A DNA stretch of 32,000 nucleotides, taken from an uncultured archaeon (GTDB lineage Archaea; Asgardarchaeota; Thorarchaeia; Thorarchaeales; CAZPUN01). Of this stretch, positions 19,967 to 31,744 are shown piece by piece. Both the position numbers and the translations under genes were made by a program. Every line of letters starts with the position of its first letter. Positions within the stretch are counted from its first letter, which is position 1. The stretch is from the NCBI GenBank assembly GCA_964589775.1, contig CAZPUN010000039.1, positions 30,001 to 62,000 of the forward strand, written 5' to 3'. The notes under the pieces are model-generated. The model did not search any database and was not told the DNA's origin. It saw only the letters and a list, made by a program, of their open reading frames with translations.

Positions 19967-20114
19967 TTTTAATCTCTCCGAGACTTTTTTTTCATAAAAA
20001 AAATTTGTTTTTTATACATTTAACTCTATCTGAGAGACCAATACAGATAATAAAAATGAAATGACAATCACATAAATGTTTCAATATACCGAACATAATA
20101 TAATAAAAAATTTT

Positions 20115-20154
20115 GGCGATTCATCACCGCTTTCTAAAGCGATGATTTCTCGCA
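20115..20154 (-). repeat. Palindromic repeat copy 1 (IS200/IS605 left-end-like hairpin)
   Basis: GGCGATTCATCACCGCTTTCTAAAGCGATGATTTCTCGCA. Near-identical to copies at 22159-22200 and 31703-31744; lies 14 bp past the stop of the minus-strand gene at 20168. Confidence 0.85.
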
Positions 20155-20167
20155 TCTCATTTATAAA

Positions 20168-20989
20168 TTATAGCAACTCTTCCTTCTTTTTCTCTTCCGC
20201 TTTGATTTCTTCTAATTCTTCTTGCGATAACTTGTAACCCTCTGGTAAAATTCTCTTACCGATCATTTTTGCACCGGGTAGGAACCCACGATCAATAAGA
20301 TTTCTCAGAGTTGCAAGATCATTAACTGACATGCCTTCAATTACAACAGGCTCACCAGATTTGAATTCTTCCATAATTGCATCTAGCAACATTCGTTTAG
20401 CAGACATGACGGCAATACGGCGGTCTATGGCTCCAATTAAAATTCCAAGAATACCACCATAGAAGAATCCATAAAATCCGCCGGAAGCCCCGCCTGCATA
20501 ACCACCTACAAATCCGCCTGCAAAACCTCCGATAATACCACCTAATACAGCATCTTTGCTAAGGTTGCTAAGTACTGATGAAAGACCACTCAAGAAAATT
20601 CCGAACATAGCACCAACCATTGAACCCATTAATGCTCGAGAATATGGGTCTTGGCCTAGACCTGCAAAACCGCCAAAAACACCACCAATTAAACCACCAA
20701 CAAGAAAGCCAGTAGTATAATCGAGCATTTTCTCGATTTGCTGGAATAAGTTATATGTATAAATCTCCTCTTTCATTTCAACTTTATAATAGATCACACC
20801 AAATATGATACCAAAAATTGTCATTATTGGAAATGAAGGATAAGGATTGCCGATATTATCAACAGGAGGATTAATAGTCATAAGAACATCAGCAATAAAG
20901 AAGGAGATAATAGAAACAATCAGAGCGGTTTTTGCCGCTTTGTGTCTGACGTTCTCAGAAATATCTCTAATAATCGTATGAGCGTCCAT
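20168..20989 (-). CDS. Glycine-zipper membrane protein with C-terminal PCI/winged-helix-like domain
   Basis: Multiple GxxxG repeats (GGIIGGFAGGFVGG, GILGILIG) and the cytoplasmic tail LRNLIDRGFLPGAKMIGKRI. RBS GAGGT. Confidence 0.75.
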   Translation of the reverse strand: MDAHTIIRDISENVRHKAAKTALIVSIISFFIADVLMTINPPVDNIGNPYPSFPIMTIFGIIFGVIYYKVEMKEEIYTYNLFQQIEKMLDYTTGFLVGGLIGGVFGGFAGLGQDPYSRALMGSMVGAMFGIFLSGLSSVLSNLSKDAVLGGIIGGFAGGFVGGYAGGASGGFYGFFYGGILGILIGAIDRRIAVMSAKRMLLDAIMEEFKSGEPVVIEGMSVNDLATLRNLIDRGFLPGAKMIGKRILPEGYKLSQEELEEIKAEEKKKEELL

Positions 20990-21172: not shown

Positions 21173-21991
21173 TTGGAACAATTATCTATTGACTTATTAA
21201 ATACATCTGCGAAATCGGGCGAAAGTATAGAGGGTAAAATAATATTATCCAAACTTCCAACAAAAGTAGATGTGATCTCCATAGAATTAAGAAGAAAAAT
21301 CTTGGGAACTATCAAAATCCCAAGAAAGCTCATGCCCGATATTCGAAAAGATTTTGAATTATATAGCACATCAAGTGGAACATACATTTTAACCAATAAT
21401 TCGAAAGATGGCGAATTCAACTTTTCAATTAAAGTTCCAGAAAGCGCAATATCATCTTTTAATTCTCGATATTTATCTATATCCTATGATATCTTTGCAA
21501 AATTAACTTCTGAAGAGAGTTTAGACACATACTATGTCTCGATTCCAATAGCAATTATAGGAAAAAATAAACAACCAAAGATCAATACTGAAAAATCAAT
21601 TTATACAATGTCCGGTAAAGATGAACTATTAGACATAAATTTAAGAAACATTTCCATAAAGAGAGGAAAACCAATACATATCGAATATCGCATAATTGAT
21701 AATTCGGACTTATTTTCCATAGTTGTTCGCCTTAATAATAGAATACGAATAAAGATCGATCCAGATATAGAAGAACCAATGTGGTATGAATCAACAATAT
21801 TAGAGGAATCAAAATATTATAAGGGAAACAAAATCCCAGATGTAGATGAATTATCGATAATAATACCGCAACTATCACCCCCAACAATTTCAAATCCAAT
21901 GTTCGATATAGAGTGGGAACTACAAATCGAATATGTAATGGATTGGGGTAATTCAGTCTCAATGTCTTTACCAATACATATTGAGCCATGA
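21173..21991 (+). CDS. Arrestin-fold protein (tandem arrestin-like lobes)
   Basis: GESIEGKI, FNFSIKVPESAISSFNSRYLSISYDI, IPQLSPPTISNPMFDIEWELQI. TTG start after GAGGT. The TGA stop is supplied by the adjacent mobile element. Confidence 0.75.
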   Translation: MEQLSIDLLNTSAKSGESIEGKIILSKLPTKVDVISIELRRKILGTIKIPRKLMPDIRKDFELYSTSSGTYILTNNSKDGEFNFSIKVPESAISSFNSRYLSISYDIFAKLTSEESLDTYYVSIPIAIIGKNKQPKINTEKSIYTMSGKDELLDINLRNISIKRGKPIHIEYRIIDNSDLFSIVVRLNNRIRIKIDPDIEEPMWYESTILEESKYYKGNKIPDVDELSIIIPQLSPPTISNPMFDIEWELQIEYVMDWGNSVSMSLPIHIEP

Positions 21992-22112
21992 CATACTCGC
22001 CACATTGAATTACAAGAGTTCTACGCATAGGCTATCCAGCGGTAGCCATTTCACGCATATACTCGCCATGTCTCGACAAGGGAGCTTTGATTATCGCTCC
22101 AGCCCCCTCTTA
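21968..22112 (-). ncRNA. Putative omegaRNA/reRNA: scaffold about 22112-21988 plus flank-derived guide (about 21987-21968, GGCUCAAUAUGUAUUGGUAA)
   Basis: 59/120 G+C (49%) over 21991-22110, against AT-rich intergenic DNA elsewhere. Hairpins GGAGC/GCUCC and GGCUA/UAGCC, a G-U-rich stem UAUGCGUG/UAUGCGUA, and UGAA able to pair with the RE-loop UUCA. Confidence 0.6.
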
Positions 22113-22207
22113 GTATGTTTAGTTCCATTAAGATATGGATAATCATTAATGAACTATTCTGCGATTCATCACCGCTTTGAAAAACGATGCTTTCTCGCAG
22201 AGCGTTT
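21988..22207 (-). mobile_element. 220-bp non-autonomous IS200/IS605-family (TnpB-associated) miniature element
   Basis: Minus-strand order: target TTTAC (22212-22208), AAA, LE hairpin (22200-22159), tnpB-tail-like LNILRGG (22122-22102), structured GC-rich segment, RE ending GAGTATGTCAT (21988). No TIRs or TSD. Excision joins GAG CC|G TAA and restores the host gene end. Confidence 0.78.
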
Positions 22208-22328
22208 GTAAATCCAAACCATTTCAAGAATTGAATCGCCTATTAATATAAAAAAAGGGGAAAAGTCTACAAATTTACGTTGCCTTTAGGTTATTCTGCA
22301 TTCTCAAATTGAACAATTTTTCATCAGA

Positions 22329-31398: not shown

Positions 31399-31702
31399 AT
31401 AAATCACCTATCCATTCAATTATTAAATTTTGTCAAATCATTCCACATATATTACTGCAAATAAAAAATCGATTTTCCTTATATGTGTTATTGCTTAACT
31501 ATAAAAATATAATTGTTTTTGAAAAAGAAAAAACACGAATTATACTTCATAACACACTATATAGATCCTCTATTGAGAGAAAACTCTTTGTGTATATAAT
31601 TGTGCCAAATGGTTTTTTATTTATTCAAATGATATTTTTGAATACTAAATCCTCAAATCATAATCATTTTCAATTCTACAATTAGTTCATATTAAAAAAA
31701 TT

Positions 31703-31744
31703 AGGCGAATCATCACCGCTTTCTAAAGCGATGAGGACGCGCCT
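31703..31744 (-). repeat. Palindromic repeat copy 3 (IS200/IS605 left-end-like hairpin)
   Basis: AGGCGAATCATCACCGCTTTCTAAAGCGATGAGGACGCGCCT. The 25-nt core TCATCACCGCTTTCTAAAGCGATGA is identical to copy 1; outer arms AGGCG/CGCCT. Confidence 0.85.

What the first reader, a model, noticed from the sequence alone, without database searches (positions are those of the whole stretch)
21980..22212. Silent insertion: the element supplies the host stop codon and excision restores the same C-terminus
With the element present, the arrestin-fold gene ends ATT GAG CCA TGA (I-E-P-stop); the last A of CCA and the TGA are the element's right end (TCAT on minus). Joining 21987 to 22208 gives ATT GAG CCG TAA, again I-E-P-stop. 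This independently supports both boundaries. Inference: a TTTAC/TTAC target contains the reverse complement of TAA and a TCAN end contains the reverse complement of TGA. Elements with this geometry would therefore swap TAA for TGA and insert harmlessly at gene ends.
Basis: partly seen in the sequence, partly recalled or inferred. Interest (0 to 1): 0.82.

Follow-up and report, generated by a model that had tools for sequence, protein, structure and literature searches.

The report
Transposon end replaces a gene's stop codon
A 220-base gene-less jumping element of the well-known IS200/IS605 (IS608) type landed exactly on the stop codon of an arrestin-like gene in an Asgard archaeon, and its last four bases supply a new in-frame stop, so the protein is unchanged. 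This follows from the family's known end rules, recurs here and in cyanobacteria, and is best explained by harmless landings surviving.

Summary
Observation confirmed. The arrestin/Vps26-like gene (21173-21991, +) ends ATT GAG CCA TGA. The A and the TGA are the complement of TCAT, the right end of a 220-bp protein-free IS608-type element (21988-22207, minus). Joining 21987 to 22208 gives CCG TAA.

- **Empty site:** a syntenic ortholog (71% identity, NCBI GCA_053994715.1) has no element and ends ATT GAT CCA TAA at the same codon.
- **Two more loci in this genome confirm the four-base TCAN end:** a HAD gene, at single-base resolution against its ortholog, and a wHTH regulator whose family C-terminus is conserved.
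- **IS608 rules fit:** guide AAAG pairs with target TTAC; guide GAAC pairs with a consensus TCAG end 10 nt past the hairpin.
- **Frequency here:** 5 of 45 right ends supply a stop to a real gene. That is about 15-fold over all TTAC sites (p about 2e-5) but only about 2-fold over non-coding TTAC sites (p about 0.13).
- **Cyanobacteria:** of 109 IS608-like right ends, 13 end an ORF of 200 or more codons in the stop-supplying frame, against 1 and 1 in the other frames.

So the geometry is real and general. It looks like a by-product of the end rules plus selection, not targeting. This copy's right hairpin has decayed and no TnpA was found, so excision is only a formal reconstruction. The scan reported the same phenomenon earlier, in this genome and in other Asgard genomes.

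The parts
21173..21991 (+). Arrestin/Vps26-like gene, 272 aa, ending ATT GAG CCA TGA. The last four bases (21988-21991) belong to the element.
   Evidence: ORF list. Pfam Arrestin_N 24.0 bits, E 4e-5, just under the cut-off. ESM Atlas structure matches to arrestin/Vps26 clusters at TM 0.75-0.80 over residues 1-272. 71%-identical syntenic ortholog P0002.
21988..22207 (-). 220-bp protein-free IS200/IS605 (IS608-type) mini-element (PATE/MITE), read left end to right end on the minus strand.
   Evidence: About 45 right-end and 31 left-end matches genome-wide. Alignment of 16 copies shows identity starting right after TTAC and ending at TCAN.
22208..22211 (-). Target and left cleavage tetranucleotide TTAC (plus-strand GTAA). 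22209-22211 is the ancestral TAA stop; 22208 (G) is the ancestral third base of the Pro codon.
   Evidence: TTAC flanks 20 of 31 left ends. The ortholog reads CCA TAA at this position.
21988..21991 (-). Right cleavage tetranucleotide TCAT (family consensus TCAG). Its complement ATGA gives the third base of the Pro codon plus the present TGA stop.
   Evidence: The four-base end is confirmed at the HAD locus by gap-free alignment of the joined flanks with the ortholog.
22170..22193 (-). Left guide AAAG (22190-22193) and the left imperfect palindrome (22170-22189), 18 nt from TTAC to the hairpin foot.
   Evidence: Folds at -8.6 kcal/mol as ssDNA. Matches the IS608 layout of TTAC, 19 nt, AAAG guide (PMC3201880; PMC5934647).
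21988..22021 (-). Right guide GAAC (22018-22021), a decayed right hairpin (21998-22017) and the 10-nt tail AGTATGTCAT (21988-21997).
   Evidence: The consensus hairpin folds at -6.9 kcal/mol (z -2.8). This copy folds at only -1.3 kcal/mol, no better than shuffles. In IS608 the right cleavage site lies 10 nt 3' of the hairpin foot.

Best explanation
A non-autonomous IS608-type element integrated by Y1-transposase (TnpA) single-strand 'peel and paste', 3' of a TTAC on the minus strand. The transposase would have been supplied in trans. That TTAC is the complement of G-TAA, the third base of the last Pro codon plus the TAA stop of the arrestin-like gene.

The element's right end is the four-base cleavage site TCAT (family consensus TCAG). 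Its complement is A-TGA. The gene therefore now reads CCA TGA instead of CCG TAA, and the protein is identical.

The effect is generic for this family. Target TTAC and right end TCAN both carry a stop complement in positions 1-3, and the cut falls after position 4 in both. Any landing on an antisense G-TAA therefore swaps stop for stop in frame and alters only the last codon's third base.

Such landings persist because they are harmless. They are a by-product of end rules set by guide/cleavage-site pairing, filtered by selection.

- **Shown:** the boundaries, the ancestral stop position, and recurrence in two distant lineages.
- **Inferred:** the transposition chemistry, by homology to IS608, and selection as the cause of the enrichment.
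For: - **Sequence and boundaries:**
- **Empty orthologous locus:** same gene order, no element, ending CAT ATT GAT CCA TAA.
- **HAD locus on contig C64:** the joined flanks ...AATATTTA+GTAAGAGGGAT align without a gap to the ortholog's ...AATATATAGTAAAAGGGAT. A three-base TCA end would need an extra base.
- **wHTH regulator on contig C48:** it ends GGT TGA and the empty site would read GGG TAA. The family C-terminus ...DLFG is conserved across homologs from Thermococcus, Pyrococcus and Palaeococcus.
- **IS608 rules from the literature:** TTAC 19 nt 5' of the hairpin foot, guide AAAG; TCAA 10 nt 3' of the foot, guide GAAT; precise donor resealing (PMC3201880; PMC5934647). Here the guides are AAAG at 18 nt and GAAC with consensus TCAG at 10 nt. 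The fourth positions co-vary between lineages: GAAT/TCAA in cyanobacteria and IS608, GAAC/TCAG in this family and in a Thermoplasmatota copy.
- **Recurrence in this genome:** 5 of 45 right ends end real genes in the stop-supplying frame, and none in the other two frames.
- **A TnpB-bearing cyanobacterial element does the same:** a DUF4058 gene now ends ELRD-TGA; the empty site reads ELRE-TAA followed by a hairpin.
- **Cyanobacterial survey:** of 109 right ends, ORFs of 200 or more codons end at the element's TGA 13 times in frame 0, against 1 and 1 in the other frames.
Against: - No empty allele of this exact locus in the same species was obtained.
- This copy ends TCAT, not the consensus TCAG, which mismatches its GAAC guide.
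- No TnpA or TnpB gene is present in the 96.75%-complete assembly, so mobility is not shown.
- At two of the five loci (contigs C8 and C17) the left end is too decayed to rebuild the empty site.
- In this genome, enrichment over non-coding TTAC sites is not significant (5/45 vs 5.9%, p 0.13).
Confidence: 0.87

Rival explanations
1. The element ends at TCA (three bases) and the T belongs to the host. The empty site would then read CCA GTA AAT CCA AAC CAT TTC AAG AAT TGA, and the insertion would have cut eight residues off the protein.
For: The base after TCA varies among copies (G 14, T 4, A 2 of 20 exact-TCA ends), so it could be flank plus a target preference.
Against: The ortholog stops directly after Pro at the same codon. 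The HAD locus needs the four-base end for a gap-free fit to its ortholog. The wHTH family C-terminus is conserved at the element-supplied stop. G at 70% against 17.6% genomic G, the 10-nt spacing, and pairing with guide GAAC all fit the IS608 rule.
Confidence: 0.04
2. Stop-codon landing is an evolved strategy. The TCA right end, or target choice, is maintained by selection on the element so that it can aim at, or be harmless at, gene ends.
For: Stop-codon sites are over-represented about 2-fold over non-coding TTAC sites in this genome and about 3-fold in the cyanobacterial sample (13-16 of 109 vs 4.5%, p 1e-3 to 3e-5). The 10-nt tail AGTATGTCA is conserved from archaea to cyanobacteria.
Against: T at position 1 and A at position 3 of both cleavage sites are dictated by pairing with the guide tetranucleotides in IS608 (PMC3201880). 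Target recognition reads only the four bases. Part of non-coding DNA (promoters, leaders) is not neutral, which alone can give a 2-3-fold excess. The cyanobacterial null rests on only 13 of 290 sites taken from flanks next to insertions.
Confidence: 0.1
3. Coincidence: the element landed in intergenic DNA, and the gene later happened to end at a TGA inside it.
For: In an AT-rich genome stop codons are frequent, so some overlap is expected.
Against: The ortholog's stop is at the identical codon. In this genome all five cases are in the one frame that the geometry predicts, and none in the other two. The cyanobacterial frame split is 13:1:1 (p 3e-5).
Confidence: 0.02

Closest known systems
IS608 (ISHp608) of Helicobacter pylori, the IS200/IS605 paradigm (PMC3201880, PMC5934647)
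   Same: Insertion 3' of TTAC without duplication. Left guide AAAG. Subterminal imperfect palindromes. Right cleavage tetranucleotide TCAN 10 nt past the hairpin foot. Precise resealing of the donor keeps TTAC.
   Different: 220 bp with no tnpA or tnpB. The right guide/cleavage pair is GAAC/TCAG (consensus) instead of GAAT/TCAA. TTAC lies 18 rather than 19 nt from the left hairpin foot. The host is archaeal. This copy's right hairpin has decayed.
PATEs / MITE-like protein-free derivatives of IS200/IS605 (for example in Haloquadratum; PMC3119063 came up but I did not read it)
   Same: Both ends are retained, there is no coding capacity, there are many copies per genome, and mobilisation is presumed to be in trans.
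   Different: Nothing essential. Here no autonomous partner was found in the assembly.
IS605-derived stem-loops overlapping the 3' ends of Borrelia lipoprotein genes (Delihas 2009, PMC2775950)
   Same: IS605-end sequence overlaps the last codons and the stop codon of a host gene. The paper notes that other small repeats also overlap gene 3' ends.
   Different: The passages I read (a term search for 'stop codon' only) describe the left-end sequence in sense orientation overlapping a TAA. Those passages do not state the in-frame TAA-to-TGA swap rule derived from the TTAC and TCAN tetranucleotides.
IStrons (IS605/IS607 fused to a group I intron; PMC4227781, bioRxiv 10.1101/2023.11.20.567912)
   Same: A member of the same transposon family whose insertion into a gene is made harmless.
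   Different: Harmlessness comes from RNA splicing, not from replacing the stop codon at the DNA level.
Integrating phages and islands that rebuild the 3' end of their target gene, such as tRNA genes or icd (from my own knowledge, not checked here)
   Same: The inserted DNA brings a replacement for the displaced gene end, so the insertion is phenotypically silent.
   Different: These use site-specific recombinases with long attachment sites. Here only four bases are replaced by a single-strand transposon.

Membership tests
IS200/IS605 family, IS608-type, non-autonomous derivative (PATE/MITE) | Inserts 3' of a specific tetranucleotide (TTAC) with no target-site duplication | tested here: met
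   TTAC directly precedes 20 of 31 left ends, and 5 more are one-base variants. At the HAD locus the joined flanks match the ortholog with no duplicated or missing base.
IS200/IS605 family, IS608-type, non-autonomous derivative (PATE/MITE) | Subterminal imperfect palindromes at both ends, not terminal inverted repeats | tested here: met
   Left hairpin -8.6 kcal/mol. Consensus right hairpin -6.9 kcal/mol (z -2.8). In this copy the right hairpin has decayed to -1.3 kcal/mol.
IS200/IS605 family, IS608-type, non-autonomous derivative (PATE/MITE) | Guide tetranucleotides 5' of each hairpin foot that pair with the cleavage sites, at IS608-like distances | tested here: met
   AAAG with TTAC at 18 nt; GAAC with consensus TCAG at 10 nt. 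The fourth positions co-vary against GAAT/TCAA in cyanobacterial elements and IS608.
IS200/IS605 family, IS608-type, non-autonomous derivative (PATE/MITE) | A Y1 HUH transposase (TnpA) available in the genome to mobilise it | tested here: not met
   No PF01797 match in the 2.16-Mb, 96.75%-complete assembly, and no TnpB either (PF07282). Repeats often fail to assemble, so absence from the organism is not shown.
IS200/IS605 family, IS608-type, non-autonomous derivative (PATE/MITE) | Precise excision and single-strand circle formation | not testable with these tools
This rests only on homology to IS608.
Arrestin / Vps26-like fold (host gene) | Two-lobed beta-sandwich arrestin fold and a family profile match | tested here: inconclusive
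   Pfam Arrestin_N scores 24.0 bits against a cut-off of 24.9, and 20.3 bits for the ortholog. The ESM Atlas model (pTM 0.64) matches arrestin/Vps26 clusters at TM 0.75-0.80 over residues 1-272. My own AlphaFold2 model was poor (pLDDT 44). There was no PDB sequence hit.

The most novel reading that the evidence does not exclude
The stop-for-stop swap could be more than a tolerated accident. The TCA at the right end and the TTAC target of IS608-type elements may be kept partly because they make the stop codons of convergent genes privileged safe-harbour sites. That would let these elements, and their TnpB guide RNAs aimed at the adjacent gene end, persist in gene-dense genomes across both prokaryotic domains. 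The 2-3-fold excess over non-coding TTAC sites does not exclude this.
Probability: 0.1. Interest if true: 0.6.

Novelty: new member of a known kind. Interest (0 to 1): 0.38.

Why it matters
It gives a simple sequence-level reason why IS608-type transposons and their miniature derivatives can sit flush against genes in compact genomes without harm. About one surviving insertion in seven to nine replaces a gene's stop codon, in an Asgard archaeon and in cyanobacteria alike.

Practical consequences:
- When a convergent gene appears to end inside a repeat, the gene is intact, not truncated.
- The shared four-base geometry pins element boundaries to the base.
- G-TAA stop codons become predictable neutral landing sites for IS608-based tools.

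I found no explicit statement of this rule in the papers I could search. It is, however, a corollary of known end rules, not a new mechanism.

Tried and rejected
- **Same-species alleles.** An exact 25-mer of the gene's 3' end found nothing in metagenome contigs. Contigs encoding the identical protein (ENA, and Logan SRR8542060) are all filled alleles identical to the window.
- **Family in relatives.** The element was not found by DNA in 86 genomes of the same order. No close homologue of the arrestin-like protein was found in 40 of them.
- **Exact scans for the right-end tail.** The 20-mer, 17-mer and 29-mer scans gave few true hits, and most 17-mer hits were chance. The 14-mer search within one cyanobacterial order was the productive route.
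- **Rfam.** No family in the window reached its gathering score.
- **Structure and sequence of the host protein.** My AlphaFold2 model was too poor to use and there was no PDB sequence hit.
- **Guide/cleavage covariation among decayed copies within this genome.** No clean pattern, and none is expected for fossil copies.
- **My strict hairpin filter on the cyanobacterial ends.** It was too stringent for imperfect palindromes and I ignored it.
- **Rejected readings.** A three-base TCA end, a chance overlap, and an active targeting strategy as the default reading.

Full report
**What is there.** The window is contig C39:30001-62000 of a 2.16-Mb, 35% GC Asgard (Thorarchaeota-related) assembly. The 272-aa ORF 21173..21991 (+) ends CAT ATT GAG CCA TGA. 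Bases 21988-22207 on the minus strand are one copy of a repeat family. A profile search finds 45 right-end and 31 left-end matches in the genome, and 30 of them pair up as 190-270-bp elements. The assembly holds no Y1 transposase and no TnpB.

**Boundaries of the element.** In the alignment, identity between copies begins immediately after a flanking TTAC. This holds for 20 of 31 left ends, and 5 more are one-base variants. Identity ends at ...GGGGAGTATGTCA plus one more base. That base is G in 14 of 20 exact-TCA ends, against 17.6% G in the genome. On the plus strand the flank GTAA is 22208-22211 and the element's terminal ATGA is 21988-21991.

**Is the right end TCA or TCAN?** This decides the finding. 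With a three-base end the empty site would read on for eight more codons. Four lines of evidence favour the four-base end.
- *Orthologous empty site.* A 71%-identical ortholog lies in a syntenic locus of NCBI assembly GCA_053994715.1. The gene order is the same: M18 peptidase, SIS protein, 273-aa protein, arrestin-like protein, convergent HHH protein, SfsA. It carries no element and ends CAT ATT GAT CCA TAA. Its stop is at the identical codon, 41 nt from the convergent gene.
- *HAD gene on contig C64.* It ends AAT ATT TAC TGA at an element flanked by TTAC. The flanks joined under the TCAN model (...AATATTTA+GTAAGAGGGAT) align without a gap to the ortholog's ...AATATATAGTAAAAGGGAT. The TCA model would leave one extra base. 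At this locus the insertion changed a tandem TAG TAA into TAC TGA and added one tyrosine.
- *Winged-helix regulator on contig C48.* It ends GGT TGA, and the empty site would read GGG TAA. The family C-terminus ...DLFG is conserved in homologs from Thermococcus, Pyrococcus and Palaeococcus. The closest ortholog ends GGA TAG.
- *IS608 rules.* In IS608, TTAC lies 19 nt 5' of the left hairpin foot and pairs with guide AAAG. TCAA lies 10 nt 3' of the right hairpin foot and pairs with guide GAAT. Excision reseals the donor, keeping TTAC with no gain or loss of DNA (PMC3201880; PMC5934647). Here the left guide is AAAG at 18 nt. The right guide is GAAC, and the tail AGTATGTCAG is exactly 10 nt. Relative to IS608 and to cyanobacterial elements (GAAT/TCAA), the fourth positions changed together to GAAC/TCAG. 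The same pair occurs in a Thermoplasmatota copy.

**How it works.** The element inserted 3' of a minus-strand TTAC that is the complement of G-TAA at the end of the gene. Its own last four bases are the complement of A-TGA. Both tetranucleotides carry a stop complement in positions 1-3, and both are cut after position 4. The new stop is therefore in the old frame, and only the third base of the last codon changes (CCG to CCA, both proline). The chemistry is inferred from homology to IS608. The geometry and the ancestral state are shown.

**This copy is probably a fossil.** Its right hairpin has decayed through several transitions. It folds at -1.3 kcal/mol, no better than shuffles, against -6.9 kcal/mol for the consensus. 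Its TCAT mismatches its GAAC guide. 'Excision restores the C-terminus' is therefore a reconstruction, not a present ability.

**How often, and is it more than chance?** Five of 45 right ends supply the stop of a real gene:
- the arrestin-like gene in this window;
- the HAD hydrolase on contig C64;
- the wHTH regulator on contig C48;
- a 423-aa protein on contig C8;
- a longin-domain protein on contig C17.

No long ORF enters a right end in either of the other two frames.

I called 1,821 ORFs of 100 aa or more (87.6% coding) and classified every TTAC site. There are 17,106 in coding sequence, 2,366 non-coding, and 149 on antisense G-TAA stops. The observed 11% is about 15-fold above the 0.76% expected from all TTAC sites (p 2e-5). 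It is only 1.9-fold above the 5.9% expected from non-coding plus stop sites (p 0.13; Fisher p 0.19).

**Independent replicate in cyanobacteria.** A TnpB-bearing cyanobacterial element (TTAC ... GAAT-hairpin-AGTATGTCAA) ends a convergent DUF4058 gene. The gene now reads ELRD-TGA, and the empty site would read ELRE-TAA followed by a terminator-like hairpin. The 14-mer GGGGAGTATGTCAA occurs in 73 of 151 genomes of that order, against almost no matches for the reversed control.

At 109 distinct right ends, ORFs of 200 or more codons end at the element's TGA 13 times in frame 0, against 1 and 1 in the other frames. At 100 or more codons the split is 16, 5 and 2 (p 3e-5 and 4e-4). A rough null taken from the flanks gives 4.5% stop sites among non-coding TTAC sites. 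That implies about a 3-fold excess, but the null rests on only 13 of 290 sites.

**Reading of the statistics.** The phenomenon is real, general and frame-exact. The modest excess over non-coding sites is what purifying selection would give, since promoters and leaders are not neutral. Nothing requires targeting.

**Comparison with what is known.** The element is an ordinary PATE/MITE-type derivative of an IS608-like element. Overlap of IS605-end sequences and other small repeats with the 3' ends and stop codons of genes has been described (Delihas 2009, PMC2775950). IStrons achieve harmless insertion by splicing. Searches for IS605, IS608 or TnpB together with 'stop codon' and TTAC returned no paper stating the TTAC/TCAN stop-swap rule. 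That library lacks most subscription journals.

**Earlier notes of this scan.** Earlier notes reported the same phenomenon at the HAD gene of this genome and in several other Asgard genomes, with similar frequencies and the same 'harmless landings survive' reading. I tested the HAD case myself. I did not test the others.

**Verdict.** It is a tidy, apparently unstated corollary of known IS608 end rules, and interest is moderate.

Noticed in passing
window 20111-20164 (minus): A solo left-end fragment of the same family (flank TTTAT, then AAATGAGATGCGAGAAATCATCGCTTTAGA...). It starts 5 nt after the TAA stop of the 273-aa gene 20168-20989 (minus), with no right end nearby. The orthologous intergenic region in L041 is about 90 nt shorter.
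   Followed up: partly
window 31700-31733 (minus): A weak left-end hairpin match of the same family (nhmmer E 4e-6), without a recognisable TTAC or right end.
   Followed up: no
G087 and 72 other cyanobacterial genomes (loci L083-L192); L068 (Thermoplasmatota MAG): The 10-nt right-end tail AGTATGTCA(A/G) and the preceding GGGG are conserved from Asgard and Thermoplasmatota archaea to cyanobacteria. The 14-mer GGGGAGTATGTCAA occurs in 73 of 151 genomes of one cyanobacterial order. The guide/cleavage pairs co-vary: GAAT/TCAA against GAAC/TCAG.
   Followed up: partly
G000:C33:25554-25559 (same genome): A 541-aa gene on the same strand as an element reads through the TTAC into the left end and stops two codons in (TAC CAA TAA). 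A decayed left end can therefore also provide a stop, in the sense orientation.
   Followed up: no
G000:C21:44300-44486 and G000:C64:26032-26224: Two elements are followed directly by a second, partial right end (a tandem right-end hairpin plus tail). These may be partial duplications or insertions next to older copies.
   Followed up: no
G000:C27:30231-30442 and G000:C46:2645-2907: Elements fill the whole gap between convergent genes, lying 4-9 nt from both stop codons without supplying either.
   Followed up: no
window 21966-21987 (minus-strand flank of the right end): If the element's omegaRNA-like scaffold were transcribed, its guide would be the flank just past the right end. That flank is antisense to the last codons of the arrestin-like gene. 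No TnpB is in the assembly to use it.
   Followed up: no
window 21173 versus L041:3001: The ortholog is called six residues longer at the N-terminus (MEKRQQ...), while the window's ORF starts at a TTG. The true start codon of the arrestin-like gene is uncertain.
   Followed up: no
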